From a virus (lineage: Duplodnaviria; Heunggongvirae; Uroviricota; Caudoviricetes): a stretch of 64,000 nucleotides of DNA. Below the pieces are notes generated by a model. It worked only from the letters and a program-made list of their open reading frames with translations. It was not told where the DNA came from and ran no database searches. Of this stretch, positions 3,298 through 40,290 are shown in pieces (position 1 is the first letter of the stretch; every line of letters begins with the position of its first letter). The DNA lies in IMG/VR virus record IMGVR_UViG_3300023179_003795, positions 1 to 64,000 of that record, one strand, 5' to 3'. A program made the position numbers and the translations under genes.

Positions 3298-5610
3298 ATG
3301 AGCGATATAAACAAAAATAAATTATTCATACCAATAACTGAATCGGAACAATCTAAGAAAGGTAAATTATTTATCCCTAGAAGATTATCAGGTGAAAATT
3401 CTAGATTTATCCAATGGAATAAGGAACAACCCATCGTAGATGGTGTTCAAATTAATCAATATACACATGATGGTAAAAAAGAAGGTATTTGGGAATTTTA
3501 TTACCCCAATGGACAATTAGATACAAAGGGTTCATTTAAAAATGATAATTATGATGGTATTTGGGAATATTATTATAGTGATGGTAAATTAGCTTCTAAG
3601 GGTTCTTATGAAAATAATAAAAAAACAGGTGTTTGGGAAGATTATTATAAAAATGGACAATTAGATTTTAAAGGTTCATTTAAAGATGGTAAAAAAAATG
3701 GTATATGGGAAAGTTATCACGATAATGGACAATTAAGGTACAAGGGTTCATATAAAAATGATAAACTAGATGGTATATGGGAAAGGTATTATAGTAATGG
3801 ACAATTAATGTTTAAAGGTTTATATAGAGATGATGAATTAATTAAATCATTACCATTAACCGAATCTGAACAACCAAAGAAAGGTAAATTATTCATACCT
3901 CGTAGATTATCAGGAGAGAATTCTAGATTTATCCAATGGAATAAGGAACAACCGATAGTTGATGGGGAACGTATTAATCAATATACACATGATGGTAAGA
4001 AAGAAGGATATTGGGAAGAAGTAGATGAAAATAATTTTTTTAGAGAAAACGGTTATTATAAAAATGGTAAAAAGGATGGTGTGTGGAAATATTTAGATTT
4101 TGATTTTATGTTATTAAGTGAAGGAACATTTAAAGATGGTAAAAAAAATGGTATATGGGAATATTATTGGAGATTTGATGGTTCATTAAAGTTAAAAGGT
4201 TTATATAAAGATGATATAAAAACAGGTATTTGGGAGTTTTATTATTATGATGAACAATTAGATAGTAAAGGTCAATTTAAGAATGATAGAAAAGATGGTA
4301 TATGGGAAGAATATTTTCCTAATGGGGGATTAAAAAGTAAGAAATTATTTGATGATGGTAAATTAATTAAAGAATTACCAATAACTGAATCAGAACAATC
4401 TAAAAAAGGTAAATTATTTATTCCTAGAAGATTATCAGGAGAGAATTCCCGATTTATCCAATGGAATAAGGAACAACCCATCGTAGATGGGAAACATATT
4501 AATCAATATACACATGATGGTAAGAAAATTGGTATATGGGAAAGGTATCATAAAAATGGACAATTATGGTCTAAAGGTTTATTTAAAGATGATAAAAAAG
4601 AAGGTATATGGGAATATTATCATTATGATGGACAATTAAGTTCTAAGGGTTTATATAAAGATGGTAAATATGATGGTATTTGGGAAAGTTATTATAGTAA
4701 TGGACAATTAGAATCTAAGGGTTTATATGAAGATGATTTAAAAAATGGTATATGGGAAGAATATAATATACGTGGTAATTTAGTGTTTAAAGGTTTATAT
4801 AGAGATGATGAATTAGTTAAAATATTACCAATAACTGAATCAAAAACCCCATCATTCTTATTAAAAGAAGAAATGGGTTTAATAAGGGAAGGGAATGTTC
4901 AGGATTATATCAATAACGTAATATCAAAAATTAAAAACTTATCTTATGAAACAAAAAAGAAATATATTTTAATAGCAATCTCAACCCTTTTAGGTTACAC
5001 ATCTTACCCTGTCATTCAATCAATGTTTGATAAATCACCAGATAAAGAAACAAAAGAAATTGTTCATAGAGTAATGAACAAAAAAAATAATTTTTCTATG
5101 TTTAAAGATGGAACAAAATTCCGTTTATCTAAAAAAGGTTTTCAACACATTATGGATGAAGAAAAACCAAAACTTATAACATACGCATTAGGTGATGGTA
5201 AAATTACTGTTGGTTATGGACACGCTGAACCGGTTGAAACAACCAAACTTAAAGTAGGTCAAAAAATAACTAAAGAACAAGCAAAATTATACCTTAAACA
5301 AGACCTTAAAATAGCCGCAGATGGTGTTAGAAGAATGTTTAATGATTGGAAAAAACAAGATAAAAACTATAAAGTTACTCAAGATATGTTTGATGCTTTA
5401 GTTTCAATGGCTTTTAATATGGGAGTATCAGGTCTTAGAAATACTAATTTAGTTGATTATCTTAGAGATGGTGATTATAAAACCGCAGGACAACTTATTA
5501 AACAAACAAATATTGATAATGATTCATTTCCAGGTCTTGAAAAAAGAAGAAATAAAGAATCCAATATGTTTTTATCGTATTTGTTACAAAAAAATAAAAT
5601 AAATGCTTAA
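3298..5610 (+). CDS. Modular MORN-repeat protein with a C-terminal GH24 (T4-type) lysozyme domain
   Basis: 770 aa. Three modules each begin with [IL]P[IL]TESEQ.KKGKLFIPRRLSGENSRFIQWNKEQPIVDG and are followed by about 6 MORN repeats (G.WE.YY.NGQL..KG.YK.G...G). The last about 150 aa (about 5155..5610) match T4 lysozyme blocks (TVGYGH ... RR.KESNMF versus T4 TIGIGH ... RAKRVITTF). The start is preceded by atatttataaaaaaATG. Confidence 0.85.
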   Translation: MSDINKNKLFIPITESEQSKKGKLFIPRRLSGENSRFIQWNKEQPIVDGVQINQYTHDGKKEGIWEFYYPNGQLDTKGSFKNDNYDGIWEYYYSDGKLASKGSYENNKKTGVWEDYYKNGQLDFKGSFKDGKKNGIWESYHDNGQLRYKGSYKNDKLDGIWERYYSNGQLMFKGLYRDDELIKSLPLTESEQPKKGKLFIPRRLSGENSRFIQWNKEQPIVDGERINQYTHDGKKEGYWEEVDENNFFRENGYYKNGKKDGVWKYLDFDFMLLSEGTFKDGKKNGIWEYYWRFDGSLKLKGLYKDDIKTGIWEFYYYDEQLDSKGQFKNDRKDGIWEEYFPNGGLKSKKLFDDGKLIKELPITESEQSKKGKLFIPRRLSGENSRFIQWNKEQPIVDGKHINQYTHDGKKIGIWERYHKNGQLWSKGLFKDDKKEGIWEYYHYDGQLSSKGLYKDGKYDGIWESYYSNGQLESKGLYEDDLKNGIWEEYNIRGNLVFKGLYRDDELVKILPITESKTPSFLLKEEMGLIREGNVQDYINNVISKIKNLSYETKKKYILIAISTLLGYTSYPVIQSMFDKSPDKETKEIVHRVMNKKNNFSMFKDGTKFRLSKKGFQHIMDEEKPKLITYALGDGKITVGYGHAEPVETTKLKVGQKITKEQAKLYLKQDLKIAADGVRRMFNDWKKQDKNYKVTQDMFDALVSMAFNMGVSGLRNTNLVDYLRDGDYKTAGQLIKQTNIDNDSFPGLEKRRNKESNMFLSYLLQKNKINA
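4377..4639 (+). repeat. About 263-bp segment identical (inverted) to 31083..31345
   Basis: Spot-checked nucleotide identity over the leader + first MORN repeats (KKGKLFIPRR ... EGIWEYYHYDGQL). A second about 85-bp identical block lies at about 4726..4812 / 30893..30979. Confidence 0.8.
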
Positions 5611-5630: not shown

Positions 5631-7472
5631 ATGGGATTTTTACAATTTTTATTCGAAGGTAGGGTTGATGATTTTAAAAAATTATTTAAGGACAAATATA
5701 CAACCCCTGAACAAATAGACGCTATTATCAAAGTTTCATCTGAAGTAGATGATAAACACAAATATTTAATTTGGTTAGCAAAAACACTTACCAAACCAGT
5801 ATTCAATAATGAAATTGCTTTCGGTGAAGAATTAGCGGAAGCACAAGAACTTCTAATGAAGTTTAAAACAATTGGTCCTAATCTACCAATTAAAGATATT
5901 TCACAATATAAAAACATATCTGAATTAGCAGACGCGATTAAAACTTACGAAAATAGACAAAGAAGAACAATTAAAAAGGTTGATGGTGCTGATATAATCT
6001 ATGATGACGATGATTATACAATTGTCCACCCAAAAGAATATTTCGCATCTTGTTATTACGGTGAAGGTTCTAAATGGTGTACATCATCTAAAAATACTGA
6101 TAGTCATTGGTATTCATATAATAAAGAAGCGAAATTGTTTTATTTTTTATCAAAGAAATTACCTACAAGTAATGACTTTTATAAAGTAGCGTTAGAACAA
6201 AAGTATGATGGAAAAAGAATTTTTTGGAATGCACCTGATAAACCTTTTGCTTCTGGTTGGATATTAGGGACTGATTATATGAACGATTTACTCGAAGTTG
6301 TAGATCAATATATGAAAGACAATTATTCAAGAGAAATTGGTATATTCTCAGACGAACAAAAAGCAAAAATTGAAGCAGAAATTGAAAGACAAAGATTACA
6401 AAGGATTGAAACCCAACGAATAATTAATCAAAAAAGAAGAGATGCTGAAAGTAGAAGGGAAACCGATGAATGGAATCCTGAAGAAGTTACTCACGGTGAA
6501 GTTGGATCACACGCTTGGGCTTTATTCACTTATTTAACCAGATATGAAAATCTTGTACCGAAAGAACCGGGAGATACCGAAAGACTTGAATTTATTAATT
6601 CTGAATTAGATAGGTTAGGTGAATTACAAAGTCAATATGAGGTTGAGGGTAGGGATTTAACTGGTATTGATGCTGAGATTTCAGCATTAGAAGAAGAAAA
6701 AGATGAGTTAGAAAAAAGAGTTGATGTATATGATATGATACCTGAAGGTGGTGATTATACTAATATGTCAAGATTTAGTGTGACAAATCCTGACTATGAT
6801 GGATATGAATGGACTGTCGGTGATGATGATCAAATTAAACAAGCCGCTTTTGATAGTGCTGAATCCTTAATTGACGACATAGGGTATGAAGGATTTAACA
6901 GTTATTTGGTTGAACGACATATTGATGCTGACGCTGTGGCTAGTGAGGCGAGAGATAGTTATGAATATTGGGTTCGTGATAATCCTGAGTCGTATTTAGA
7001 TGAAACAGATAGAGATTTAAGCAAATCACAACAAAAAGAGATTGGTGAATATCAAGAAAAGATTGATAAATACACTTCTTTCCGTGAAAAAGCAACTGAA
7101 CGTCAGGAAAATTATGATTCGGATAGTAGAGAATGGAAAGCACTTGAAAAGGGTATTGATAAACTAACGGATTTAATATCTGACCTTGAATATGATATTG
7201 AAAACATTAAAGAAGAACCGGATGGTGATTGGGATGAAGATAAAATTGAGGAAAAGATTGATGATTTGGTTGATGATGTAAAACGTAATCCATTAGATTG
7301 GTTAAAAGAAATGGGTATTGAAAAATATGATGATTATATAAATAAATATGAGTTTATTGAGGATATAATTGATTCTGATGGGTATTATCAAACATTAAAT
7401 AGTTATAATGGTGATGGTGATACTGTTGAATGGGATGGTGAGACATATCATATAATGAATACAGATAGATAA
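5631..7472 (+). CDS. Hypothetical protein; member 2 of the C-x-YG-x-G-T-K-W-C paralog family with a long acidic C-terminal extension
   Basis: Core is VHPKEYFASCYYGEGSKWCTSSKNTDSHWYSYNKEAKLFYFL. The track start at 5613 lies inside the gtatatttatatagat promoter-like motif. A start at 5631 (MGFLQ...) reproduces the gtatttatatagatATG arrangement seen at 23410 and 31389. The C-terminal about 350 aa are D/E-rich and coiled-coil-like. Confidence 0.65.
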   Translation: MGFLQFLFEGRVDDFKKLFKDKYTTPEQIDAIIKVSSEVDDKHKYLIWLAKTLTKPVFNNEIAFGEELAEAQELLMKFKTIGPNLPIKDISQYKNISELADAIKTYENRQRRTIKKVDGADIIYDDDDYTIVHPKEYFASCYYGEGSKWCTSSKNTDSHWYSYNKEAKLFYFLSKKLPTSNDFYKVALEQKYDGKRIFWNAPDKPFASGWILGTDYMNDLLEVVDQYMKDNYSREIGIFSDEQKAKIEAEIERQRLQRIETQRIINQKRRDAESRRETDEWNPEEVTHGEVGSHAWALFTYLTRYENLVPKEPGDTERLEFINSELDRLGELQSQYEVEGRDLTGIDAEISALEEEKDELEKRVDVYDMIPEGGDYTNMSRFSVTNPDYDGYEWTVGDDDQIKQAAFDSAESLIDDIGYEGFNSYLVERHIDADAVASEARDSYEYWVRDNPESYLDETDRDLSKSQQKEIGEYQEKIDKYTSFREKATERQENYDSDSREWKALEKGIDKLTDLISDLEYDIENIKEEPDGDWDEDKIEEKIDDLVDDVKRNPLDWLKEMGIEKYDDYINKYEFIEDIIDSDGYYQTLNSYNGDGDTVEWDGETYHIMNTDR

Positions 7473-7494: not shown

Positions 7495-8478
7495 ATGACA
7501 AAAAATGAAGCAAAAAGAGCCTTTTTGGATAAAGGTATATTGAAAAAAGATGCGTTTGATAGATTTTTAAATGAAGATCCAACAACACAAAAGAAATATG
7601 TGTTTTATATGATTAAACAATATTTAAAACAATCTGATGAAGAGGGTATTCAAGTATCTGATTTATCAGCAGATGATTTAAGTATGGGTATTTTATCACC
7701 TATATTTTCATATGTGACAGAATACAACACATTATTAAATAGAGTCCCACAAGATAAAAGAGATATATATAAATTATCTTATAATGAATTGGTTAGTATT
7801 GTTGATGAATTGAACACTTCTAGTGGTGAAACTGATAGATCGTCATTAAGGAAAAGAGCACGTGAAAATTCTGATAATTTTAATGAATTAGGTATTGTAG
7901 AGATTCCAGGTGTATTAGTTGTTGCACCATATAATCACGACGCTATTTGTTGGTATGGTCAAGGAACAAGATGGTGTGTGGCTATGGATTCCGCTCCAAA
8001 CCATTGGGTGAATTATTACACCACACAAAAAAATACTTTTTATATTATAAGTGCTACAAATGATGCCGTTAGAAACAAAATTAAAGAACATTATAAAAAT
8101 AAATGGGAACGAATGGGTTTAGGTAGACCAACAGGGAGTCCACCAAAAATAAAATGGGTGTTAGTTAAAAACGATAAAGACGTGTCTGAAATATCAACCG
8201 AAAATAAAAATGAAGCGGCTGAACTATTCAAAGAAAGATTAAATTTACCATCATTAAAAGGATATGATATTGAAAACTATGGTTATAGAAACCTATATAA
8301 AGTAGCGTTTTTAGTTCCACCAACAAGAGATAGTATGGGTGACGAAATAAAGAATGAAAAAGGTGAATATATACCTAATATGAAAAATGCACAGATTTTT
8401 TCTTCTGACGATATTTCATTTAATAATGGATGGGAAGAATACTTTAAAGTAATTGGTTTATATGATGTTTTTATTTAA
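7495..8478 (+). CDS. Hypothetical protein; member 3 of the C-x-YG-x-G-T-R-W-C paralog family
   Basis: 327 aa. Core is VVAPYNHDAICWYGQGTRWCVAMDSAPNHWVNYYTTQKNTFYII, with an N-terminal DPTTQKKY motif shared with other members. The start follows tatatttatatatATG. Confidence 0.7.
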   Translation: MTKNEAKRAFLDKGILKKDAFDRFLNEDPTTQKKYVFYMIKQYLKQSDEEGIQVSDLSADDLSMGILSPIFSYVTEYNTLLNRVPQDKRDIYKLSYNELVSIVDELNTSSGETDRSSLRKRARENSDNFNELGIVEIPGVLVVAPYNHDAICWYGQGTRWCVAMDSAPNHWVNYYTTQKNTFYIISATNDAVRNKIKEHYKNKWERMGLGRPTGSPPKIKWVLVKNDKDVSEISTENKNEAAELFKERLNLPSLKGYDIENYGYRNLYKVAFLVPPTRDSMGDEIKNEKGEYIPNMKNAQIFSSDDISFNNGWEEYFKVIGLYDVFI

Positions 8479-8485: not shown

Positions 8486-8511
8486 AAAACCCCTTTCATT
8501 GGGGTTTTTTT
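8486..8511 (+). terminator. Rho-independent terminator (aaaacccc-tttcatt-ggggtttt + T-run)
   Basis: Perfect 8-bp GC-centred stem with a 7-nt loop followed by TTTTTTT, directly after the stop of 7495..8478. Confidence 0.6.
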
Positions 8512-8534
8512 ATGTTTTAAACTATTTATATTCG

Positions 8535-8975
8535 ATGAAAAAGATTAAATTAACTGAACAAGATTTAACAAATATAGTTAAAAGAGTAATATCGGAGGAT
8601 GAAAATTCAAAAAAAGGTAAACTATTTATTCCAAGAAAAATTGATGAAAGAAAGATTGAACATCAAAAAATAATCGCTGGTGAAGTAGAAAAGATTAAAA
8701 AAAGTCCTTTTGGTTCAATATCAAAAAAATTTTTATTTGAGTGGTTACAGGAAAATAATTTAGAACAAGAACTAAAACTTTCTTACAAAGGTTCATCTTT
8801 AGGTGAAGTAGGTATGACATCATATGATAATTCAAAAGGTGAAGTTACCCTATATTTAGAATCAAAAGTAACATCTTTAGGTAATGTAGGGATACGTTTT
8901 AAAATATCCGACATTCAAATAGGGTATGTTGAACCAAATGTAATGGAAGATGATAAATTTTATCCAATAGATTAA
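8535..8975 (+). CDS. Hypothetical protein carrying the N-terminal leader (MKKIKLTEQDL ... KKGKLFIPRKIDERK)
   Basis: The track ORF starts at 8499, but that Met lies inside the terminator hairpin. The ATG at 8535 follows actatttatattcg and gives the conserved MK.I.LTE leader. Confidence 0.6.
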   Translation: MKKIKLTEQDLTNIVKRVISEDENSKKGKLFIPRKIDERKIEHQKIIAGEVEKIKKSPFGSISKKFLFEWLQENNLEQELKLSYKGSSLGEVGMTSYDNSKGEVTLYLESKVTSLGNVGIRFKISDIQIGYVEPNVMEDDKFYPID

Positions 8976-8977
8976 TT

Positions 8978-9451
8978 ATGAAAATACTTATAACTGAAGA
9001 ACAAAAAAAGAAGTTATTCATCCCAAGAAGGATTGATGAAAGAAAAGAACAATTTAAAAAAGAATTTTCTGAAAAAACCAAAGAATTATTATCTCATTTT
9101 AATATAACTGAAATAGTAAATCATGGTCGTATTGATGATTATGAAAATGAAATATCTGGTGAAGATATTGAAGAAGGTTATAGTAAAATTGTTATTGATG
9201 GTAAAAATTATTATGGATTTCCAAATTGGGAATTGGTTGAAGATTTAATCAATAACTGGGAAGAAATGTTAGCAGGATATTTAAATATGATTATACCACA
9301 ACCATCGGATGAAAGTATAAGTAAATCACAACCAAATATTGTTGGTAGAATGTTTAGGGTAGATATTACCCCATCAAAAATAGATATTAGTTTTTCTTGC
9401 TCAATTGTAGATTACATAAATAAAAAAGGTAATGAAACCATTACCCTTTAA
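8978..9451 (+). CDS. Hypothetical protein carrying the N-terminal leader (MKILITEEQKKKLFIPRRIDERK)
   Basis: 157 aa, starting 2 nt after the previous stop. The leader is identical in type to those at 23018..23410 and 30520..31389. Confidence 0.6.
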   Translation: MKILITEEQKKKLFIPRRIDERKEQFKKEFSEKTKELLSHFNITEIVNHGRIDDYENEISGEDIEEGYSKIVIDGKNYYGFPNWELVEDLINNWEEMLAGYLNMIIPQPSDESISKSQPNIVGRMFRVDITPSKIDISFSCSIVDYINKKGNETITL

Positions 9452-9683
9452 TATCATCAACCCAAATAGGGGTTTTTTCTCCAACGTAAGCACCTGAAAC
9501 ATTAAAATCAAAGTATTCAATAGCCTCCACCTCATTCATTTCCCTACAAAGAATTTCAATACATTTAGATACCGAATAAACCAATCTCATAGATTTAATA
9601 TCAATACCAATGAGAGCCTCATCAAAACCATCGGCTTTAAGGAAATTCTCATCAGGGTATTTTTCAATAATACTATCAATCAT
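9441..9683 (-). CDS. Hypothetical protein
   Basis: 80 aa ORF convergent with the plus-strand block; its ATGA start overlaps the stop of the next gene. Confidence 0.4.
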   Translation of the reverse strand: MIDSIIEKYPDENFLKADGFDEALIGIDIKSMRLVYSVSKCIEILCREMNEVEAIEYFDFNVSGAYVGEKTPIWVDDIKG

Positions 9684-10462: not shown

Positions 10463-10522
10463 ATTTTTTATTTTAATTATAATACAAATGTAATTTTTAA
10501 TTTTTTATTATCCAAATTTTTT

Positions 10523-12373: not shown

Positions 12374-12396
12374 ACCACAAATGTAATACTATTTTT

Positions 12397-20085: not shown

Positions 20086-21042
20086 TTACTTTTCTATTTT
20101 TGATAATTTTTTGTAATAATAAATATCTTCATATAAATGATCTTTAGCAATTTCTCTAGCAATTCTATTTTTATTGGTGTGTTCCATTTCAACTTTAATA
20201 CCCTTTAACCATTCTTTCATCGCTATTTGTGGTAATATTTTATGTTTTTTAGCGATTTCAATAATTGTCATACCACTTGATTTACCACCAGATATTACTT
20301 CTTCATTAACCCATTTTGTCTTTGTTAAATGAATATTTCCTTTATACCCCTTCGGATATGTTGGCGTTAATTTCATTTCACCTGATAATGAACTTTCACC
20401 CCTATATTTATTACTTAATTCCAAAGGAGAGTCAACAGCTCCTTGAGAACAATAAGGGAATTTTCTACACTTACTCTTTATTTTAACAAATTTACCACCT
20501 TTTCCACCATAAGTTGTCTTAGCACCTTGTCTCATATTTGGAATATTCTTAGCCAAGAAACCAGGGGTTTCATATGACCCAGTTGATGCTGAACCTGTTT
20601 CTTCTTTAATAATTTTTTCTATTAAAGAAATTAACTCACTTTCTGTTATTGTTAAAGTTTTTTTTATACTCTCTTTTCTTGGTTTATATGAAGCCATTGC
20701 TGGTTTATTACCTTTACCTACTTTACTATGTGTTTTTTCAACCCTTCTTTTCTGAGCACAAGCAGCCCTTTTTTGTTCATCAGTCATCTTAGATGCGACA
20801 CTAGCAGCCCTACATTTAGGGTATGATTTATCGGTAGCCTTTTCTCTACCACAAGGAGGATGTTTCCCATCTTCCTTACGACATATATTAACCCAAGGTC
20901 CTTTAGGTTGCTTACTACCTTTTGGCTTCTTCTTAGTTCCAAACCAAACAGCCAAATCCTCATTGGTTAAATCTTCCCTTATTTTCTTCCTAATATTTTC
21001 CATAACATTAACAATATGATCCTGAACATTTTTTCTGTCCAT
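20086..21042 (-). CDS. Hypothetical basic Cys-containing protein with an internal TITESELISLIEKIIKEETGSAS segment
   Basis: 318 aa. It overlaps the upstream ORF by 35 nt, so an alternative start at 21003 (MENIRKK) is possible. It shares the ITESELISLIE + KEETG.AS.G block with 21008..21676. Confidence 0.5.
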   Translation of the reverse strand: MDRKNVQDHIVNVMENIRKKIREDLTNEDLAVWFGTKKKPKGSKQPKGPWVNICRKEDGKHPPCGREKATDKSYPKCRAASVASKMTDEQKRAACAQKRRVEKTHSKVGKGNKPAMASYKPRKESIKKTLTITESELISLIEKIIKEETGSASTGSYETPGFLAKNIPNMRQGAKTTYGGKGGKFVKIKSKCRKFPYCSQGAVDSPLELSNKYRGESSLSGEMKLTPTYPKGYKGNIHLTKTKWVNEEVISGGKSSGMTIIEIAKKHKILPQIAMKEWLKGIKVEMEHTNKNRIAREIAKDHLYEDIYYYKKLSKIEK

Positions 21043-23017: not shown

Positions 23018-23410
23018 TTATAGTTTATATGTTTTACTATCATTCCTTAATTCACTTACTTCGTAATCAAAAGACACTAATAATTTATTTTCTTCAGTTA
23101 TATCTATATCACCCCATATGTGGAATATACCATCAATTCGATCAGCAATCCCTTCAATTAATTTATAAACCGGAGTTTCAAACTCATATAATTCACGGTG
23201 ATTATTACCCCCATCAAAGACACCATGCATATACCAATTCCATTCGTCAGGAGTTGTACTCATATCAAATCGAACACTTGTTTCATTATCTTTTATATAT
23301 TGAAGAACAGGATTCATTCCAATTTCAGATAAATATTGTCTATCCCTTTCATCAATTCTCCTGGGGATAAATAACTTCTTTTTTTGATCTTCACTAATAA
23401 TAATTTTCAT
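23018..23410 (-). CDS. Hypothetical protein carrying the N-terminal leader (MKIIISEDQKKKLFIPRRIDERDRQ)
   Basis: 130 aa. The start is embedded in the reiterated terminator-promoter cassette; the first codons are near-identical at the DNA level to the start of 30520..31389. Confidence 0.6.
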   Translation of the reverse strand: MKIIISEDQKKKLFIPRRIDERDRQYLSEIGMNPVLQYIKDNETSVRFDMSTTPDEWNWYMHGVFDGGNNHRELYEFETPVYKLIEGIADRIDGIFHIWGDIDITEENKLLVSFDYEVSELRNDSKTYKL

Positions 23411-23467
23411 ATCTATATAAATACTTCAGAACATAAAAAAACCCCAATAAAGGGGTTTTAATTTTTT
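23411..23467 (-). promoter_or_regulatory. Terminator-promoter cassette (hairpin aaaacccc-aataaa-ggggtttt, then T-tract, then gtatttatatagatATG)
   Basis: About 68 nt identical to 31374..31442. Read on the minus strand it is a GC-centred hairpin, a U-tract, a TATTTATAT motif, then ATG 4 nt later. Confidence 0.55.
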
Positions 23468-30304: not shown

Positions 30305-30523
30305 ATGAAAAATCAATATAAACAAAGACAGAGACAGATTGAAAAATCAATTAAAGGTGATCATATTCAAAATCAAGACTATTTCTTAGATTTAATGATT
30401 TTACAAGAAAAACGTAAGAAAAAAGAAAGTAAACCCAGATTGGTTTTAAAAAATGGTCAATTAAACATTAAAAGATTGTTTAATAATGGGGTTCCTTTTA
30501 GTTGGGAAGATAACCCCCTTTAA
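30305..30523 (+). CDS. Hypothetical basic small protein
   Basis: 72 aa, starting 4 nt after the previous stop. Confidence 0.4.
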   Translation: MKNQYKQRQRQIEKSIKGDHIQNQDYFLDLMILQEKRKKKESKPRLVLKNGQLNIKRLFNNGVPFSWEDNPL

Positions 30524-31389
30524 TGGGAGTTGTAGGTTTCTAATAATTCCCTTATTTCAATTAATTGTTCTAATTTAAGTTCTTCGTATTTAACCGGAAA
30601 AGATGTTTCTTCTGTATTGTATTTATACCCACCATATACTACAACTTCAACATGATCAGAATAAAATTGTTCAATTAAGGCAACTTCATTTTCTTCATCT
30701 TCAGGACTATACCCATAAACAATTGAATTACCACCCAATTCACCCATACTTATAAAACCTTCTTCTTCTTCAATTATTTCTTTAATCTCAGAAATATATT
30801 TTTGTTTTAGTTCTTCAGCCTCAATCTTTCGTTGATCAATTCTTCTAGGGATAAATAATTTACCTTTTTTAGATTGTTCCGATTCAGTTAGTGACATCAT
30901 TTTAATTAATTCATCATCTCTATATAAACCTTTAAACACTAAATTACCACGTATATTATATTCTTCCCATATACCATTTTTTAAATCATCTTTAAATGAA
31001 CCCCTTTCATATAATTTCCCATTTCCATAATATTCTTCCCATACACCATCTCTTTTACCATTAATATAACTTCCTTTATATTTTAATTGTCCATCATAAT
31101 GATAATATTCCCATATACCTTCTTTTTTATCATCTTTAAATAAACCTTTAGACCATAATTGTCCATTTTTATGATACCTTTCCCATATACCAATTTTCTT
31201 ACCATCATGTGTATATTGATTAATATGTTTCCCATCTACGATGGGTTGTTCCTTATTCCATTGGATAAATCGGGAATTCTCTCCTGATAATCTTCTAGGA
31301 ATAAATAATTTACCTTTTTTAGATTGTTCTGATTCAGTTATTGGTATGAATAATTTCTTTTTTTGTTCTTCAGTTATAATAATTTTCAT
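30520..31389 (-). CDS. MORN-repeat protein with N-terminal leader and an internal second leader copy
   Basis: 289 aa starting MKIIITEEQKKKLFIPITESEQSKKGKLFIPRRLSGENSRFIQWNKEQPIVDG, followed by 5-6 MORN repeats, a second LTESEQSKKGKLFIPRRIDQRK and an acidic C-terminal domain. About 90 aa are identical to part of 3298..5610. Confidence 0.75.
   Translation of the reverse strand: MKIIITEEQKKKLFIPITESEQSKKGKLFIPRRLSGENSRFIQWNKEQPIVDGKHINQYTHDGKKIGIWERYHKNGQLWSKGLFKDDKKEGIWEYYHYDGQLKYKGSYINGKRDGVWEEYYGNGKLYERGSFKDDLKNGIWEEYNIRGNLVFKGLYRDDELIKMMSLTESEQSKKGKLFIPRRIDQRKIEAEELKQKYISEIKEIIEEEEGFISMGELGGNSIVYGYSPEDEENEVALIEQFYSDHVEVVVYGGYKYNTEETSFPVKYEELKLEQLIEIRELLETYNSH
31083..31345 (-). repeat. Inverted copy of 4377..4639
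   Basis: See the paired feature. Confidence 0.8.
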
Positions 31390-31442
31390 ATCTATATAAA
31401 TACTTCAGAACATAAAAAAACCCCAATAAAGGGGTTTTAATT
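31390..31442 (-). promoter_or_regulatory. Terminator-promoter cassette, second copy
   Basis: Identical over about 68 nt to 23395..23462, including the hairpin aaaacccc-aataaa-ggggtttt and gtatttatatagatATG. Confidence 0.55.
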
Positions 31443-32694: not shown

Positions 32695-33216
32695 TTATTT
32701 GTATCCAATATAAACTTGTGGATAGATATATCCTTCAGGGTATTTATTTAATAATTGTATTGTTCTATGCCATCCTTCCAATAATTCATATTTTTCACCT
32801 TTCTTTAAAAGAATTATAGGTTCTGTTGGCATATTACCTTGTATTTTTTTTGCTTGGTATTGATGTCTTTTTAAATCATTTGGAACATTAAAAGGATTTT
32901 TTAAACCACCTTCACGTTGTTTCATATATTGAATTGTTGACGCACCAAAAATATCCAATGAAATAGGGAAATCCTTTTTAAGTTTCCATTTATAATCACC
33001 GTATTCTTTAACCAAAATCTTCATTTCTTCATAGGTGTATGGTCTTTCATTCTTCTTAGCAAATATATCCATTATAATATAATTGGGCATATTTGGAAAT
33101 GTTTCCCTAAACCAATTCAATTGATCTAATTTCCAACCTTGTTTTGTTCTTGGATAATCTTTAAACTCCAAATCATCAACAACCTCTTTTAATATTTTTC
33201 TTATTAAATGTTTCAT
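32695..33216 (-). CDS. Hypothetical protein (weak ParB/Srx-like [LI]-x-[DE]-G-x-H-R motif: YELLEGWHRT)
   Basis: 173 aa. The single motif is suggestive only. Confidence 0.4.
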   Translation of the reverse strand: MKHLIRKILKEVVDDLEFKDYPRTKQGWKLDQLNWFRETFPNMPNYIIMDIFAKKNERPYTYEEMKILVKEYGDYKWKLKKDFPISLDIFGASTIQYMKQREGGLKNPFNVPNDLKRHQYQAKKIQGNMPTEPIILLKKGEKYELLEGWHRTIQLLNKYPEGYIYPQVYIGYK

Positions 33217-35085: not shown

Positions 35086-35204
35086 TTTATACTATAAATA
35101 CTAGTAATCTCGATATTTTTCATTACCTAACCTATATCTCATTATTTCTCTTTTAATATTTTTCTTATTAAATGTTTCATAATATATTGATTTACAAGTA
35201 GTTA

Positions 35205-36233
35205 TCACCAGTAACCTGAGGTGCTACCCTTAACAAGACCCGATTTATTTAATCTACACGCCCAATACCCTGCGGTCATTCTATCTTTCTTTTTAGGACA
35301 ATTGTGTCTTGCTGAAAAACTCTTTCTTGCTTTAGAATTACCTGTTTTCGCTTTTAAACCACCTTTTTTATCACCAAATGTAATCTTTTTTATATTACCT
35401 GTTGATGGGTTTTTAACATATACAACATACTTCTTACCTGAACCAGAGTTTCTTTTAATCTTACCCAATGGTGGATGTTTCTTTTCCTTTTCTTCAATGA
35501 TACTTTCAACTAATCCTTGTGATAAATCTGTCATATATTCATTCATTTCATTAGCATAAGTTTTACTATTTAATGTTCCTGTATAATAATCAGATTTTTC
35601 AAAATCAATAAAGTTTTCATAAGACAAATCACCCCAACCTTTTTCTTTAAGATATTCTTCAATTTCATCAACATCTACCTCACCACTAATATCATCATCA
35701 TCATACTCCCCACCATCATATTCAATTAAAAATACATCTAATGGAACTACCTCACCTCTAAACTTACCAAATCTACCAATATCAGTAGTTTCAAATAATT
35801 CTTCATCGTAATCATTTAATTCAATTGAACCATTATCATATAATCTTCTTGTTTCAGATAATAAATCAATATGGGCTTCACTACCTGATCTGTATATACT
35901 TTCATTAACAGATATACCATTTATTAAATGATATTTTAATTCTTCACTTATTACTTTTTTCATACCTATACTTTCATTTATATTTTTATTCCTTAATTCA
36001 TCCAAATATTTTTCAATACCATCACTATCTTCACGATCAAATACTTTTAATAATTTAACATTTTTAGTTGATATGGATTTACGATCCCCACCTTTTTTAA
36101 TATAAACCAATCTTTCATCCAATGCGTGTAATGGCACATCTTGGTATCTATATTTTTCATTGAAGTATCTCAATGGAATCATTATTTCTATTACCGCCGT
36201 TTTATTAGTCATATATGTCTTTATTATCTGCAC
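35205..36233 (-). CDS. Hypothetical protein with an acidic low-complexity core and a basic Cys-containing C-terminus
   Basis: 342 aa with EYDGGEYDDDDISGEVDVDEIEEYL and a C-terminal ...SFSARHNCPKKKDRMTAGYWACR. It overlaps the upstream gene by 29 nt; alternative starts are at 36212 and 36182. Confidence 0.5.
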   Translation of the reverse strand: MQIIKTYMTNKTAVIEIMIPLRYFNEKYRYQDVPLHALDERLVYIKKGGDRKSISTKNVKLLKVFDREDSDGIEKYLDELRNKNINESIGMKKVISEELKYHLINGISVNESIYRSGSEAHIDLLSETRRLYDNGSIELNDYDEELFETTDIGRFGKFRGEVVPLDVFLIEYDGGEYDDDDISGEVDVDEIEEYLKEKGWGDLSYENFIDFEKSDYYTGTLNSKTYANEMNEYMTDLSQGLVESIIEEKEKKHPPLGKIKRNSGSGKKYVVYVKNPSTGNIKKITFGDKKGGLKAKTGNSKARKSFSARHNCPKKKDRMTAGYWACRLNKSGLVKGSTSGYW

Positions 36234-37596
36234 TCATATTTATTATATAATATTTTTGACCTTTATATGTCCAAGTTATTGGTTCCGCTTTAGCGTCAAT
36301 ACAATATGTTGGATAATCTTTTACTAATCTATCTATATCAAAATAATTATCATAGATAAATAACATCCCAAGTAAACCATCAATATTACTATATTTTGGT
36401 GGTTGATTACCTGTTCCTTTATATTTATTTTTGTCATAAAACCCAACCGGATCTTCCATAAATTCTTTTTTTAAGTCATTAATTTCAGGTGATTTTTCAA
36501 TTTCAGCGTCGGTAAGATTATCAATATCGTATTCATTAAAAAATCTAAAACGACTACTATCCATCAATATATCATTAAATAAATCATCCCAAGAAAAATA
36601 TCTTAAAATTTTATTTTCACCAACAAATTTAATTAAATTATTTGTTTTGGTTTTACTTGAATTTAAAATATCGTATTTATCCATATCCTCTATAACATCA
36701 CCTATTGTTTCATCATTAACAACAATATATTCCCCAATAGTTCTTTGACCCCTATTAAGTTTTTTACGTAAATAAAATTTTGAGTCTTCAATAAACATAA
36801 TTTCAGGAAAATAATTATCACCAAGAGATTTAGTCCAATTATCAAATGCTTTAGCCATTAATTGTTTAGGTTTATCAATTATATTAGTTTTCCAATAGTT
36901 TTTTATACTACTACTAACTTTTTTTGGGTATATAATACTACCAGCATAATCATCATATTCAATTTTATCCACATCACCAAATTTAACCGTTAATCTATCA
37001 TCTATAGCATTATATCCTTGAACCTGACCAAAAGCATCAACAAATAACGCTGTTTTATAGTCATTACCATTACTAACTTTATTTAAGATAAAAAACAAAT
37101 TACCTTTTTCCATATAATCTTCGTATGTTGATTCATCTGTAACACACCATCTCGTTCCTTTACCATAAAAACAAGAAGCCTCCGCTGTTGATGGATATAA
37201 TATGACAATACCATCAAACTCATCAACCATATCGATATCATTCTTTAATTGTATCTTTTTGTTCGACCTTTGAAAAGCCTTTTCAGCCGCCATTAAAAAT
37301 GAATCTATATCATTATATGAATACAAATCAGTTGATAACTCAGTATTTTTAAATCTTTGTGGATAGTTATCTAATACTAGTAAAGCATCTCCAACCTTAT
37401 CCCAATATTCGTTATCAAAATATCTAACATTTCTAATACCAAACTCTTCAACAAATCTCTGATATAACCAATAGAGATATTTTTTATTTGGTGAAGGATC
37501 ATAGGGATATAACTCAGATATTAGTTTTGATTCTAATGTGGTTGATTCTGGTATATTATACTTTTTTAAAAATTTTTCTAAAAAATTTTCTTCCAT
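36205..37596 (-). CDS. Hypothetical protein; member 6 of the C-x-YG-x-G-T-R-W-C paralog family
   Basis: 463 aa. Core is VILYPSTAEASCFYGKGTRWCVTDESTYEDYMEKGNLFFIL, with an N-terminal DPSPNKKYLYW motif. Confidence 0.7.
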   Translation of the reverse strand: MEENFLEKFLKKYNIPESTTLESKLISELYPYDPSPNKKYLYWLYQRFVEEFGIRNVRYFDNEYWDKVGDALLVLDNYPQRFKNTELSTDLYSYNDIDSFLMAAEKAFQRSNKKIQLKNDIDMVDEFDGIVILYPSTAEASCFYGKGTRWCVTDESTYEDYMEKGNLFFILNKVSNGNDYKTALFVDAFGQVQGYNAIDDRLTVKFGDVDKIEYDDYAGSIIYPKKVSSSIKNYWKTNIIDKPKQLMAKAFDNWTKSLGDNYFPEIMFIEDSKFYLRKKLNRGQRTIGEYIVVNDETIGDVIEDMDKYDILNSSKTKTNNLIKFVGENKILRYFSWDDLFNDILMDSSRFRFFNEYDIDNLTDAEIEKSPEINDLKKEFMEDPVGFYDKNKYKGTGNQPPKYSNIDGLLGMLFIYDNYFDIDRLVKDYPTYCIDAKAEPITWTYKGQKYYIINMSADNKDIYD

Positions 37597-38082: not shown

Positions 38083-40290
38083 TTATTTACTTTTAAAGTG
38101 ACTTAACATTGTATAAACTCCAGCACTTTTTATAATTGTCATAAATGCTTCCATAAAATCAACATTTCCTAACAAACTATTTATTAAGTCTGAATAAGCC
38201 GGTATTAATGTAGCGAAAGCCGTAATTGATAACATTTCATTTTTAAAATCTTTCAATGATTTATTTTTTCTTAAATAAACAACAATCATAGCAATTACTA
38301 AATTAGTTAATTCAAACGAATTTAATGGTTGAACAGTGTATTGTTTAATAAGTGATGTTAAATTTCTTATTAAAGCATTTATCCCACCACCAAATGTCAT
38401 TAAAAATCCAATATCCAATCCAAAAGTTTTTTTAAAATTTTTTAATATATCATCTATATTATCATTTATCTTACCTTCATTAATATTTTTAGTTAATGGT
38501 AATTCTTCATTATATAATTTTTTAAACTCTTCCCACACTTCTTTACCTTTTAAAGGTATTGTTAAATCAAAATACATTAGATTTAAAGGTCCATATTCTG
38601 ATATATCATCAGGGAAACTATCCTTTATTCTTAAAATCATATTATCGTAAATATTTTGCATATTGTCACTATCACTAAAATCAAATTCTTCCGAATCATT
38701 AAATACATCCCAATAAGTAACAAACAAATTAATTGTATTACCAGCATTTATATCACCTTCACCCCACCTACCAATCATATTACGGGTAGTTAAATCATAT
38801 TGATTTATTTTTTTACCATCAATAATAGGTTGCATTTCATTCCATTCTTTTAATCTTTCGTCAATTCTTCTCGGTATAAAAAGTTTACCTTTTTTAGGGT
38901 GTTCAGATTCATCTATGGTTTCAATGGTATATTCCTTATCAGTTGTTTCAAGTCCCAATTTATATATTTTTTCAATTAAACCACTTCTTCTCATAGTTTT
39001 AAAAACAAGATTTTCAGTCGCCATTTCACCACCTTTATCCAAACCAGCCTTCCTATATTTCTTTATCTTATCCTTTAACTTATCCAAAGCCTTTCTGGTT
39101 TCCTCATATTTTTCCTCTTTATATGACTCAACAATTCTATTATATTCACTTTCAAATTGTCTTACCTTTTTCTTAATAGTTTCTCTATCAATTTTTACAT
39201 CTTGAGGTTTTGGTTTCTTAACCCACTCATCATTCATAACGGAATATATACCAGTACTTTCGTGTGGTTCATCTTTATCCTGAGCATATAATTCAACATC
39301 ATATCCTTTTATCTTAATATTATGATTGTCATTCCAAACCGCTTTTTTAGCGTCAAAATACTTCTTAATTAATTCCTTATCATCAAACTCATTAAAGTCT
39401 ATAAGAACGTGTAAATCCACATCCGAATATTGACTCCAATTATAATTAGCCAAAGAACCTGTAAATATAATATCTTCAATAGGTGCTTCCACCTCCAATG
39501 ACTTATGAAATTCTTGTCCGATAGCAACTAATGTGTCTTTTATCTTATTTTTTAATTTACCATCTTCATCCCATACTTTAGGGTTTAATTCCTTTTTAGG
39601 TTCAAATGATTTTAATATATTATCTTTATCTTCCATTTGTTCTTTTATTACCATATTATCGTATTCATCTTTCCAATTCATACTTTCACTAACACCACCA
39701 TCCTTATTATAAAAAATATGAGCAATTTTTTTAGACATATCATAAATAGTTTTACCCGCTACCTTACCATTCATAAAATAATCAACCCATAAACCATCAA
39801 CTTTACCATTAATATAATTACCAATACTACTTAATAAATTATTGTTTTCAAATTGGTTATTAAATGGGTAATACGTTTTCCATATACCAACAGGGCTACT
39901 ATCAACATAACTACCAATTTCTTTTAAATTACCATTTTGATGATACATTTTCCATAAACCATCAAGCTCACCATCTTTTGTTTGTCCATCATATTGGATT
40001 TGACCATTAAGGTAAAATGTTTGATACACACCTCCCCATAAACCATTTTTATATTCTATTCTAGACGTTATTTTATTTTTTTCAAACTCAACCCATAAAC
40101 CATCTTTTTTACCATTAAGTGTATATTGATTTATCTGAACACCATCTACGATGGGTTGTTCCTTATTCCATTGGTTGAATCTACTATTTTCACCGGATAA
40201 TCTACGAGGAATGAATAATTTACCTTTTTTAGATTGTTCCAATTCAGTTAGAGGTAACTTTTTAAATAATTTTTTTTTTACATCACTCAT
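38083..40290 (-). CDS. Multidomain protein: leader + MORN repeats + minimal nucleotidyltransferase (GS-x-SDVDL) domain + second internal leader + C-terminal hydrophobic region
   Basis: 735 aa. N-terminus is LPLTELEQSKKGKLFIPRRLSGENSRFNQWNKEQPIVDG followed by MORN repeats. Mid-protein FTGSLANYNWSQYSDVDLHVLIDFNEFDD matches the pol-beta-type NTase motif G[SG]-x9-13-D-x-D. Later comes HPKKGKLFIPRRIDERLKEWNEMQPIIDG, and the C-terminal about 100 aa are hydrophobic (FLMTFGGGINALIRNLT ... LVIAMIVVYL). Confidence 0.75.
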   Translation of the reverse strand: MSDVKKKLFKKLPLTELEQSKKGKLFIPRRLSGENSRFNQWNKEQPIVDGVQINQYTLNGKKDGLWVEFEKNKITSRIEYKNGLWGGVYQTFYLNGQIQYDGQTKDGELDGLWKMYHQNGNLKEIGSYVDSSPVGIWKTYYPFNNQFENNNLLSSIGNYINGKVDGLWVDYFMNGKVAGKTIYDMSKKIAHIFYNKDGGVSESMNWKDEYDNMVIKEQMEDKDNILKSFEPKKELNPKVWDEDGKLKNKIKDTLVAIGQEFHKSLEVEAPIEDIIFTGSLANYNWSQYSDVDLHVLIDFNEFDDKELIKKYFDAKKAVWNDNHNIKIKGYDVELYAQDKDEPHESTGIYSVMNDEWVKKPKPQDVKIDRETIKKKVRQFESEYNRIVESYKEEKYEETRKALDKLKDKIKKYRKAGLDKGGEMATENLVFKTMRRSGLIEKIYKLGLETTDKEYTIETIDESEHPKKGKLFIPRRIDERLKEWNEMQPIIDGKKINQYDLTTRNMIGRWGEGDINAGNTINLFVTYWDVFNDSEEFDFSDSDNMQNIYDNMILRIKDSFPDDISEYGPLNLMYFDLTIPLKGKEVWEEFKKLYNEELPLTKNINEGKINDNIDDILKNFKKTFGLDIGFLMTFGGGINALIRNLTSLIKQYTVQPLNSFELTNLVIAMIVVYLRKNKSLKDFKNEMLSITAFATLIPAYSDLINSLLGNVDFMEAFMTIIKSAGVYTMLSHFKSK

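What the first reader, a model, noticed from the sequence alone, without database searches (positions are those of the whole stretch)
3298..40290. Reiterated N-terminal leader (MKI[IL]ITE[EQ]Q + KKGKLFIPRR) on at least 12 proteins and inside MORN polyproteins; matches the T4 prohead-protease [IL]-x-E rule
The leader appears at 3298, 8535, 8978, 21676 (MKKTITLKESEL), 22752 (MKILITEQQ), 23410 (MKIIISEDQKKKLFIPRR), 31389 (MKIIITEEQKKKLFIP ITESEQSKKGKLFIPRR), 38048 (MKIRLTESQ), 40290, 51816 and 53019. Internally it recurs three to four times in the 770-aa MORN-lysozyme protein at module boundaries, twice in the 735-aa MORN-NTase protein, in 20086..21042, and as LTESEQSKKGKLFIPRRIDQRK in 30520..31389. 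Every copy has an [IL]-x-E tripeptide (ITE, LTE, LKE), which is the T4 gp21 cleavage consensus. T4 internal proteins carry a capsid-targeting sequence of about 10 aa ending in LxE. My inference is that these are head-packaged or ejected proteins processed by a T4-like prohead protease, which would release MORN modules, a free lysozyme and the nucleotidyltransferase inside the capsid. The sub-motif following the leader differs by payload, RLSGENSRF.QWNKEQPIVDG before MORN modules and IDERK before other domains.
Basis: partly seen in the sequence, partly recalled or inferred. Interest (0 to 1): 0.85.

Follow-up and report, generated by a model that had tools for sequence, protein, structure and literature searches.

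The report
Shared leader peptide on phage proteins
An uncultured T4-like phage of Bacteroidota puts the same short peptide (…ITE-EQ-KKKLFIPRR) at the start of, or between the domains of, many unrelated late proteins; it is real and selected, and it most likely addresses these proteins to the virion as the T4 capsid-targeting sequence does, though neither packaging nor cleavage could be shown here.

Summary
The core motif KK(G)KLFIPR[RK] is real. It occurs 10 times in frame, against 0.01 expected, but in 6 window proteins rather than 12.

The motif is confined to one phage lineage: 89 clusters among 1.84 billion representatives, and none in 185,579 prokaryote genomes. It is under peptide-level selection, with K-L-F-I-P invariant over 39 DNA copies that use several synonymous codons. 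It lies outside the folded payload. It also serves as the joint at which MORN arrays and payload domains are gained, lost and swapped, together with a terminator/ATATTTATA-box cassette.

All six genes sit behind the box that also precedes the portal, tail-fibre and baseplate genes. An [IL]xE lies upstream of 54 of 57 internal copies, and of none of the 10 copies that already begin the protein. ITE and LTE are the published gp21 sites of T4 Alt.

Against this, [IL]xE alone is uninformative (26 of 82 genes have one near the N-terminus). The invariant core would stay on the product, unlike the T4 sequence. No gp21-type protease or capsid gene was found in the DNA I could reach.

Verdict: a CTS-like virion address tag is the best reading (about 0.4), unproven.

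The parts
3298..5610 (+). 770-aa protein. Half leader, then three units of (leader + MORN_2 array), a truncated LPITESK junction, a hydrophobic stretch and a GH24 phage lysozyme domain.
   Evidence: Pfam MORN_2 1.5e-40 and Phage_lysozyme 1.8e-22; PHROG endolysin 5e-35. Module repeats of 522-525 nt. A close relative (L002) has two modules, not three.
3334..3384 (+). Leader copy ITESEQSKKGKLFIPRR, preceded by the half copy NKNKLFIP at 3313-3333.
3856..3906 (+). Internal leader copy LTESEQPKKGKLFIPRR at a MORN module boundary.
4381..4431 (+). Internal leader copy ITESEQSKKGKLFIPRR at a MORN module boundary.
   Evidence: The module 4376-4841 is 92% identical in DNA to 30881-31346 (I1).
4831..4845 (+). 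Truncated junction ITESK without the basic core, between the last MORN array and the lysozyme part.
8486..8534 (+). 5' cassette: terminator-like hairpin AAAACCCC..GGGGTTTT (8486-8508), TATTTATA box (8523-8530), then 4 nt before the ATG.
   Evidence: (I23, I25)
8535..8975 (+). 146-aa protein. N-terminal helix motif MKKIKLTEQDLTNIVKRVI, then leader copy ISEDENSKKGKLFIPRK (8589-8639), then IDERK and a small acidic payload.
8978..9451 (+). 157-aa protein. Canonical N-terminal leader MKILITEEQKKKLFIPRR (8978-9031), IDERK helix, and an acidic alpha/beta payload of unknown fold.
   Evidence: AF2 pLDDT is 86 overall but about 60 for residues 1-20. No fold match.
23018..23410 (-). 130-aa protein with canonical N-terminal leader MKIIISEDQKKKLFIPRR (23357-23410) and an acidic payload.
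23411..23459 (-). 5' cassette: hairpin 23438-23459, TATTTATA box 23416-23423, 5 nt before the ATG. 92% identical to the cassette at 31390-31453.
   Evidence: (D14)
30520..31389 (-). 289-aa protein. N-terminal leader (31336-31389, ending KLFIP-IT), second copy (31291-31335), MORN array, third copy LTESEQSKKGKLFIPRR (30841-30891), then IDQRK and a very acidic payload. In relatives this payload exists as a free-standing 120-aa gene with the leader alone.
   Evidence: (P0045, P0050, P0053, P0054, P0056)
31390..31438 (-). 5' cassette: hairpin 31417-31438, TATTTATA box 31395-31402.
38083..40290 (-). 735-aa protein. Degenerate half leader MSDVKKKLFKKLP, leader LTELEQSKKGKLFIPRR (40201-40251), MORN array, nucleotidyltransferase-like domain, internal leader IDESEHPKKGKLFIPRR (38866-38916), and a C-terminal domain with hydrophobic segments. 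The ortholog in a relative is 1668 aa, with four extra leader+MORN units inserted at the internal leader.
   Evidence: (phrog_36119 2e-48)

Best explanation
The window comes from an uncultured, AT-rich, T4-superfamily phage of a Bacteroidota host (ENA contig of 161,854 bp). A lineage-specific peptide module has two halves: an acidic part, [IL]-[TN]-E-(S)-[EQ], followed by a basic/hydrophobic core, KK(G)K-L-F-I-P-R-[RK]. It stands at the N-terminus of, or between the domains of, dozens of otherwise unrelated proteins that appear to be made with the virion genes.

Shown. The peptide itself is under purifying selection, it is not part of the payload fold, and it is the joint at which MORN arrays and payload domains are inserted, deleted and exchanged. 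The N-terminal form travels with a terminator-plus-ATATTTATA-box cassette.

Inferred. The peptide is a common address tag that brings accessory or effector proteins into the assembling prohead. These are a GH24 lysozyme, a nucleotidyltransferase, small acidic proteins and MORN arrays. The [IL]TE part would be a gp21-type processing site that trims the N-terminus (MKIIITE|EQKKK...) and may cut multi-module proteins at their linkers, each product then starting a few residues before KKKLFIPR. This is the logic of the T4 CTS/internal-protein/Alt system, with one difference: the conserved core would stay on the mature protein.
For: 1. The motif is real: 10 copies against 0.01 expected.
2. It is lineage-restricted. 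Only 89 clusters among 1.84e9 representatives match. There are no in-context hits in 185,579 species genomes and none in 120 capsid-gene loci of the wider clade.
3. Selection acts on the peptide. K, L, F and P are invariant over 39 distinct DNA copies (I in 37, R in 36), with 2-5 synonymous codons at each position. In one ortholog family the leader is 83% identical against 63% for the payload.
4. It lies outside the fold. In the AF2 model (mean pLDDT 86), residues 1-20 score about 60 and the first long helix begins at residue 16.
5. Payloads occur with the leader alone, with a double leader, or behind a leader+MORN unit. Module numbers differ between close relatives: 3 vs 2, and 735 vs 1668 aa.
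6. All six genes lie in transcription units behind an ATATTTATA box 3-6 nt before the ATG. That box also precedes the portal, a 158-aa gene just upstream of the terminase, tail-fibre and baseplate genes. The exonuclease, peptidase and SmpB genes carry the Bacteroidota TAnnTTTG box instead.
7. The head is T4-type: Portal_T4 2.6e-67 and a gp17-like TerL. The relatives immuto and Mel-JY01 have an annotated prohead protease, and their capsid proteins share a QLISE-A stretch.
8. 54 of 57 internal copies have [IL]xE within 14 residues upstream (background 22%), while 0 of 10 copies that sit at the extreme N-terminus have one.
9. T4 gp21 cleaves after L/I-x-E, and the CTS is a 10-residue N-terminal propeptide (PMC9026906). 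T4 Alt is cut at ITE-6 and LTE-619 (PMC5694885).
10. A separate conventional lysin (PG_binding_1 + GH19) lies in the left flank, so the MORN-lysozyme need not be the endolysin.
Against: - No gp21/S77 protease, scaffold or complete capsid gene was found in the window, in its own flanks (L003, L028) or in the relatives' DNA I walked through.
- The invariant core lies downstream of the proposed cut and would not be removed, unlike the T4 CTS.
- [IL]xE is frequent: 26 of 82 genes have one near the N-terminus.
- The upstream acidic part is inherited with the linker, so the 54/57 count is not 54 independent events.
- The lysozyme's best family matches are endolysins.
- The ATATTTATA box is assigned to 'late' only by the company it keeps.
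- Relatives encode ClpP, and the window a Clp ATPase, so another protease or recognition system is available.
- There are no proteomic data.
Confidence: 0.4

Rival explanations
1. This is a linker and cap element of a MORN-array family, with no addressing role. The motif is the inter-module linker and N-terminal cap of the MORN units. Recombination between copies, helped by a PeSL-like terminator/promoter/first-codons cassette, has spread it onto the N-termini of neighbouring small genes, where it is tolerated. There is no targeting and no cleavage.
For: Most copies lie at MORN module boundaries, and the sequence after the core (LSGE.SRW..WN..QP..DG..INQY) runs straight into the first MORN repeat. 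DNA-level repeats are up to 92% identical between distant genes. Copy number varies between relatives. A cassette of hairpin, box and ATG is shared by three genes. A 12-codon scar of another N-terminal cassette lies at 35142-35180. PeSL-mediated shuffling is documented in T4-type phages (PMC2839356, PMC4122927).
Against: 51 canonical N-terminal copies sit on payloads with no MORN array and are better conserved than their payloads. Synonymous variation with an invariant peptide argues for selection on the peptide rather than mere hitch-hiking. The leader is not packed against the payload fold. This reading does not explain why [IL]xE is missing exactly where the core is already N-terminal.
Confidence: 0.25
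2. This is a docking peptide for a partner other than the prohead. KKKLFIPR would bind a common phage or host partner and so gather diverse late proteins at one place. Candidate partners are the inner membrane, the MORN arrays themselves, the multi-copy 'DPS..KY..W' paralog family, or the phage Clp ATPase acting as adaptor or degron receptor.
For: The peptide is short, flexible and selected, and it sits on unrelated payloads. The window encodes a two-ring Clp ATPase, and relatives encode ClpP. The MORN-NTase has hydrophobic C-terminal segments, and the lysozyme protein has a hydrophobic stretch before the catalytic domain. The paralog family shares the same box.
Against: There is no direct evidence for any partner. 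Internal copies are odd for a degron. The leader has no hydrophobic signal-like region. The link to structural-gene promoters and the T4-type head makes the virion the simplest common destination.
Confidence: 0.2
3. This is a constraint on translation or mRNA. The conserved first codons (AUG AAA AUU AUU AUA ACU GAA GAA CAA AAA AAG) would be selected as an unstructured, A-rich start region for near-leaderless mRNAs, not as a peptide.
For: The box lies only 3-6 nt before the ATG, so transcripts may be leaderless. 29 of 82 genes start with MK.
Against: The same peptide recurs internally, far from any start. The core is invariant despite varying codons. Portal and tail genes with the same box have unrelated N-termini.
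Confidence: 0.05

Closest known systems
T4 capsid targeting sequence (CTS) on internal proteins IPI-III and Alt, processed by prohead protease gp21
   Same: A short N-terminal leader is shared by unrelated proteins of a T4-type phage. An [IL]-x-E tripeptide sits 6-10 residues from the start, and ITE and LTE are the actual Alt sites. The payloads look like ejected effectors: an enzyme that modifies macromolecules and small acidic proteins. The genes lie outside the head cluster in plastic regions.
   Different: There is no sequence similarity to the T4 leader. The invariant part (KKKLFIPR) lies after the putative cut and would be retained. The motif also occurs internally, up to five times in one protein, between MORN arrays. 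The protease and any packaging are undemonstrated here.
PeSL composite terminator/promoter cassettes of T4-like phages (Arbiol et al. 2010; Comeau et al. 2014)
   Same: A conserved stem-loop plus a promoter-like box flanks variable genes. Insertions, deletions and replacements between close relatives map to these repeats.
   Different: Here the repeat extends into the coding region as a selected peptide. The box is the class found on structural genes, not an early host-type promoter. Recombination also uses internal coding copies.
Polyvalent proteins of phages and conjugative elements (Iyer et al. 2017)
   Same: Large late-gene proteins string together a lysozyme or NTase with other modules. 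They are proposed to be packaged, injected and cut into functional units.
   Different: No zincin-like MPTase processing domain was detected. The modules are separated by one dedicated repeated linker. MORN arrays are not mentioned in that paper's main text (0 occurrences).
phiKZ/SPN3US inner-body and ejection proteins cleaved at S/A-x-E by a gp21-like protease
   Same: Many head-internal proteins are processed after Glu at a minimal motif, some at several sites.
   Different: Those propeptides are long and not a shared leader, and they belong to a different phage group. Nothing comparable to the KKKLFIPR core is known there.

Membership tests
T4-type CTS / gp21-processed head-internal proteins | Short N-terminal propeptide ending in L/I-x-E | tested here: inconclusive
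   The canonical N-terminal copies (MKIIITE, MKILITE) fit. Ten N-terminal variants in relatives (MSDxKKKLFIP and similar) have none. The tripeptide occurs near the N-terminus of 26 of 82 genes.
T4-type CTS / gp21-processed head-internal proteins | The phage builds a T4-type prohead with a gp21 (Peptidase_S77) protease | tested here: inconclusive
   The portal (PF07230, 2.6e-67) and a gp17-like TerL are present. No protease or capsid gene was found in the window, in its flanks or in the relatives' DNA I walked through. The related phages immuto and Mel-JY01 do have one annotated.
T4-type CTS / gp21-processed head-internal proteins | The targeting information lies in the removed propeptide | tested here: not met
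   The invariant residues K-L-F-I-P lie 3-7 residues after the only conserved [IL]xE.
T4-type CTS / gp21-processed head-internal proteins | The proteins are physically inside the capsid and are cleaved during maturation | not testable with these tools
   This needs virion proteomics or a packaging assay.
PeSL-type mobile regulatory cassettes | Composite terminator stem-loop plus promoter repeated in intergenic regions next to variable genes | tested here: met
   A hairpin AAAACCCC..GGGGTTTT plus a TATTTATA box occurs at 8486-8530, 23416-23459 and 31395-31438, the last two 92% identical.
PeSL-type mobile regulatory cassettes | The promoter is of the early class | tested here: not met
   The box is shared with portal, tail-fibre and baseplate genes. 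The host-type TAnnTTTG box is found on other genes.
PeSL-type mobile regulatory cassettes | Indels or replacements between close relatives map to the repeats | tested here: met
   Two vs three MORN modules (L002). A payload occurs with or without a MORN unit. The MORN-NTase ortholog is 735 vs 1668 aa.
Polyvalent (packaged multi-effector) proteins | Several unrelated effector domains in one late-gene polypeptide | tested here: met
   MORN_2 + GH24 lysozyme; MORN_2 + NTase-like + hydrophobic C-terminal domain.
Polyvalent (packaged multi-effector) proteins | A zincin-like MPTase domain for self-processing | tested here: not met
   No peptidase domain was found in any leader-bearing protein by Pfam or PHROGs.
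MORN_2 repeat proteins (PF07661) | Tandem 22-24-residue MORN-variant repeats | tested here: met
   E = 1.5e-40, 1.2e-14 and 6.2e-10 for the three window proteins. A 72-nt period is seen in the DNA.
Phage endolysin (lysis-cassette lysozyme) | A GH24 catalytic domain that acts as the lysis enzyme | tested here: inconclusive
   The domain is present (PF00959, 1.8e-22; phrog_7, 5e-35). However, a second conventional lysin (PG_binding_1 + GH19) lies 15 kb away in the same contig. No holin or spanin context was examined.

The most novel reading that the evidence does not exclude
This would be a plug-and-play effector polyprotein system. A gp21-type prohead protease cuts after [IL]TE in a dedicated, repeated linker, so that each released unit (MORN arrays, lysozyme, NTase, small acidic inhibitors) begins with a free KKKLFIPR N-terminus. 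That N-terminus tethers the unit in the head for ejection. The same linker, together with its promoter cassette, is the recombination joint that lets the phage swap and multiply payloads.
Probability: 0.25. Interest if true: 0.8.

Novelty: new variant of a known kind. Interest (0 to 1): 0.55.

Why it matters
If the leader is a virion address tag, it extends the T4 capsid-targeting principle to abundant uncultured marine or freshwater Bacteroidota phages. It would also give a one-line sequence rule for listing their injected effectors, which are otherwise invisible among 'hypothetical proteins'. It would show one short peptide-coding repeat serving at once as protein signal, processing site and recombination joint. 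In practice, an 18-residue tag that loads arbitrary cargo into a phage head would be a useful tool, as the T4 CTS has been. If it is only a linker, it is still a clean example of exon-like domain shuffling in a phage genome.

Tried and rejected
1. Hunt for the prohead protease and capsid gene.
- tblastn with the immuto and Mel-JY01 head proteins against the window and every fetched locus found only portal, TerL and PhoH.
- A profile search with the capsid protein returned 8000 hits; none of the 120 listed lay on a contig whose length matches the source contig or the known lineage contigs.
- A degenerate capsid DNA pattern hit more than 120 contigs of other phages.
It reached baseplate, RNR, DnaB, RNase H, ClpP and a 1525-aa protein, but no head genes.
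- A capsid-like hit at the edge of L165 proved to be a 71-aa capsid-fragment ORF, a red herring.

2. AF2 of the 289-aa protein without an alignment gave pLDDT 41, which is unusable.

4. The word-indexed search with the leader alignment returned only short fragments.

5. Resemblances I considered and dropped:
- Sortase LPxTG, prompted by 'LPLTE'. N-terminal copies lack LP, and these are cytoplasmic phage proteins.
- Tat signal, prompted by 'RR'. There is no hydrophobic region after it.
- Clamp-binding or PIP motifs. The position and consensus are wrong.
- phiKZ-type S/A-x-E cleavage at LSGE. The Glu is not conserved in relatives.
- Cleavage at I-D-E in 'RRIDER'. It is often IDQ, IDD, IDK or IDS in relatives.
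Full report
WHAT THE WINDOW IS

The window is 28% GC. It encodes a T4-type portal (PF07230, 2.6e-67) and a gp17-like large terminase. Other genes include PhoH, a sigma-70-family factor, a two-ring Clp ATPase, UvdE, RNA ligases and many ORFans. It has no near match among GenBank phages. The closest cultured relatives are Microcystis phage Mel-JY01 and Flavobacterium phage immuto, with portal identity of 36-40%.

The source is ENA contig ERZ3460577 NODE_135 (161,854 bp), and the window corresponds to positions 20,134-84,133. Many genes carry the Bacteroidota -7 promoter element TAnnTTTG, so the host is very probably a member of Bacteroidota.

THE OBSERVATION

K-L-F-I-P-R occurs 10 times, always in a coding frame, against 0.01 expected. 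The copies lie in six proteins:
- the 770-aa MORN-lysozyme (three full copies, a half copy, and a truncated LPITESK);
- the 146-aa, 157-aa and 130-aa small proteins;
- the 289-aa protein (two full copies and a half copy);
- the 735-aa MORN-NTase (two full copies and a degenerate half copy).

The full unit is [IL]TE(S)EQ(S)KK(G)KLFIPRR. The N-terminal form, MKIIITEEQKKKLFIPRR, is the same unit three residues shorter. What follows is either LSGENSRF.QWNKEQPIVDG..INQY, running into a MORN array, or IDERK opening a helix. The copy at 38866 is intermediate, so the two continuations are homologous.

They share an MK..[IL][TK]E[SEQ] start followed by a separate amphipathic helix motif. The proteins starting at 22752 and 53019 are simply paralogs. 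Eight of 82 genes have [IL][TK]E[SEQ] within the first 10 residues. That exceeds what composition predicts, but it partly reflects paralogy.

DISTRIBUTION

A profile of ten copies, scored against 1.84 billion cluster representatives, found only 89 clusters. In 51 copies the motif starts at residue 1 as M[KR]IIITEEQKKKLFIPR. Degenerate DNA patterns found it in about 20 IMG/VR loci, which on inspection share this lineage's gene families. No in-context match turned up in 185,579 prokaryotic species genomes, nor in 120 capsid-gene loci of the wider Mel-JY01/immuto clade. The motif is therefore an invention of one virulent phage lineage.

SELECTION AND STRUCTURE

Over 39 distinct DNA copies, K, L, F and P are invariant (I in 37 of 39, R in 36 of 39), while each position uses 2-5 synonymous codons (Leu: TTA, CTT, CTC, CTA, TTG; Arg: AGA, CGT, AGG). 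So the peptide is under selection, not the DNA.

In the 157-aa ortholog family the leader is 83% identical pairwise, against 63% for the payload. An AF2 model of that family has mean pLDDT 86, but only about 60 over residues 1-20. The first long helix starts at P16/R17, and the leader does not pack on the domain. The payload fold has no significant PDB or viral match. The small payloads are acidic, with pI 4.3-5.1.

MODULAR DYNAMICS

Several findings show the unit acting as a recombination joint.
- The C-terminal payload of the 289-aa protein occurs in relatives as a 120-aa gene with the leader alone, with a double leader, or behind a MORN unit (P0045, P0050, P0053, P0056, P0054).
- The 157-aa payload occurs behind a MORN unit in P0044.
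- The MORN-lysozyme has two modules instead of three in a close relative.
- The MORN-NTase ortholog in another relative is 1668 aa, with four extra leader+MORN units inserted exactly at the internal leader.
- DNA repeats between distant genes reach 92% identity over 466 nt.
- Three genes share a 5' cassette made of a terminator-like hairpin, a TATTTATA box and the ATG. The same cassette is visible upstream of leaders in relatives.
- A 12-codon scar of another N-terminal cassette lies at 35142-35180.

This resembles PeSL-mediated shuffling in T4-like phages (PMC2839356, PMC4122927). It differs in that the repeat extends into a selected coding segment.

EXPRESSION CLASS

TATTTATA occurs 38 times. 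Twenty of these sites lie 3-60 nt (mostly 3-9 nt) upstream of a start codon on the same strand. Extended to the flanks and to relatives, the box precedes the portal, the 158-aa gene upstream of TerL, the 567-aa gene next to PhoH, an 870-aa tail-fibre-like gene and a 297-aa baseplate-region gene. It also precedes five of the six leader genes; the sixth starts 2 nt after the stop of 8535-8975. The exonuclease, the M42-like peptidase, SmpB and others carry TAnnTTTG instead.

I infer that the leader proteins are made together with virion proteins. This is guilt by association, not a measurement.

THE CLEAVAGE IDEA

T4 gp21 cuts after L/I-x-E, and the CTS is a 10-residue N-terminal propeptide (PMC9026906). 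T4 Alt is cut at ITE-6 and LTE-619 (PMC5694885), which are the very tripeptides seen here.

By itself the rule is worthless in this genome. There are 342 occurrences in 82 genes, and 26 of 82 genes have one in the first 12 residues.

One pattern is more telling. Among 118 full copies in 101 proteins, 54 of 57 internal copies have [IL]xE within 14 residues upstream (background 22%). All 51 canonical N-terminal copies have ITE-like tripeptides. The 10 copies that sit within 8 residues of the start (MSDxKKKLFIP, MAKKKLFIP, MKxKLFIP) have none. Such native N-termini (SD.KKKLFIP) look like the predicted products of cutting ITE|SEQSKKGKLFIP. This fits a model in which the core must lie near a free N-terminus.

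The copies are related by descent, so this is suggestive, not statistical proof. It also means the conserved core would be kept, which is not how the T4 CTS works.

WHAT IS MISSING

No S77 protease, scaffold or full capsid gene was found. I looked in the window, in its own flanks (L003 and L028, about 18 kb) and in the roughly 60 kb of relatives' DNA reached by walking. That DNA held baseplate genes, RNR, DnaB, RNase H, ClpP and a 1525-aa protein.

The related phages immuto and Mel-JY01 have an annotated prohead protease next to the scaffold and capsid genes. Their capsid proteins share a QLISE-A stretch that fits the T4 rule. A protease in this lineage is therefore likely but unverified.

The left flank holds a conventional PG_binding_1 + GH19 lysin. 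This frees the MORN-lysozyme for a non-lysis role, although its best PHROG matches are endolysins.

CONCLUSION

The motif is a genuine, new, lineage-specific peptide module with a dual role as protein signal and recombination joint. My ranking of explanations:
- Most likely (about 0.4): a CTS-like address tag for late accessory and effector proteins, with [IL]TE as a processing site.
- About 0.25: a pure linker and cap of a MORN family, spread by cassette recombination.
- About 0.2: a docking peptide for another partner, such as the membrane, MORN arrays or Clp.
- About 0.05: a translation-start constraint, which is unlikely.

Noticed in passing
window, e.g. 3285, 5618, 7484, 8523, 15375(-), 17582(-), 20083(-), 23423(-), 31402(-), 40304(-), 53032(-), 63363; contrast with 12374-12390(-), 32382-32400(-), 62236-62250(-): There are two promoter-like classes. 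(A)TATTTATA lies only 3-6 nt before the ATG of portal, tail, paralog-family and leader genes, which implies near-leaderless mRNAs. The Bacteroidota -7 box TAnnTTTG lies before the exonuclease, peptidase, SmpB and other genes. A phage sigma-70-family factor is encoded at 49109-49891.
   Followed up: partly
window 1181-2173, 5631-7472, 7495-8478, 9683-10462, 33907-35085, 36205-37596, 41889-43673; also L271:960-1817 and 9194-11866: A large paralog family of at least 7 window genes (two of them match phrog_17056) shares a 'DP(S/T)..KKY..W' N-terminal region and a conserved 51-nt segment (repeat D11). Several members carry the ATATTTATA box. Function unknown.
   Followed up: partly
window 46674-48680(-); L271:7043-7708; L028:12789-13214: The phage encodes a two-ring Clp ATPase (AAA_2, ClpB_D2-small). 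Relatives encode a ClpP (PF00574, 3e-57). The source contig encodes an SmpB homologue. Together these could form a phage-borne proteolysis and trans-translation toolkit.
   Followed up: partly
window 27518-28693(-): A 391-aa protein matches the Druantia defence protein DruA (PF14236, 6e-13) inside a phage genome.
   Followed up: no
L188:7021-7236; L185:2498-3360; L182:9946-10811: Small ORFs of 71-213 aa are homologous to fragments of the T4-type major capsid protein (the region around 'WTPEMAQD..NIDAEAEL' and the C-terminus). They sit among replication genes in relatives and in other phages. They are not the real capsid gene.
   Followed up: partly
window 51895-52612(-) and 21828-22361(-): In-frame tandem repeats occur inside the two paralogs 51886-53019 (4.9 copies of 147 nt) and 21673-22752 (2.9 copies of 189 nt), with different repeat units behind an identical N-terminal domain of about 100 aa.
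   Followed up: no
window 35142-35180(-): A 12-codon mini-ORF, MKHLIRKILKEK*, is 89% identical in DNA to the start of gene 32695-33216. It looks like a scar of recombination at an N-terminal cassette.
   Followed up: yes
L028:18461-19285 (left flank of the window in the source contig): A PG_binding_1 + GH19 lysin of 274 aa has relatives in 362 candidate stretches in IMG/VR. The 80 best that were kept are 72-100% identical and include contigs over 300 kb, so the gene appears to be shared very widely among phages.
   Followed up: partly
window 11222-12373(-): A 383-aa M42/M20-like metallopeptidase (phrog_4191, 4e-36; Pfam M42 match only weak) sits three genes after the portal. In immuto and Mel-JY01, the genes at that position lead up to the prohead protease.
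   Followed up: partly
window 20086-21042(-), 21008-21676(-), 8535-8600, 51745-51816(-); L275:6428-7021: A second recurrent N-terminal or internal motif, (MK)K.I.LTES[ED]L..(I/L)(I/V)(K/E)R.I.E, is often followed by E(E)TG(S/T)ASSG... It is distinct from the KLFIPR core and is found on other unrelated proteins of the lineage.
   Followed up: partly
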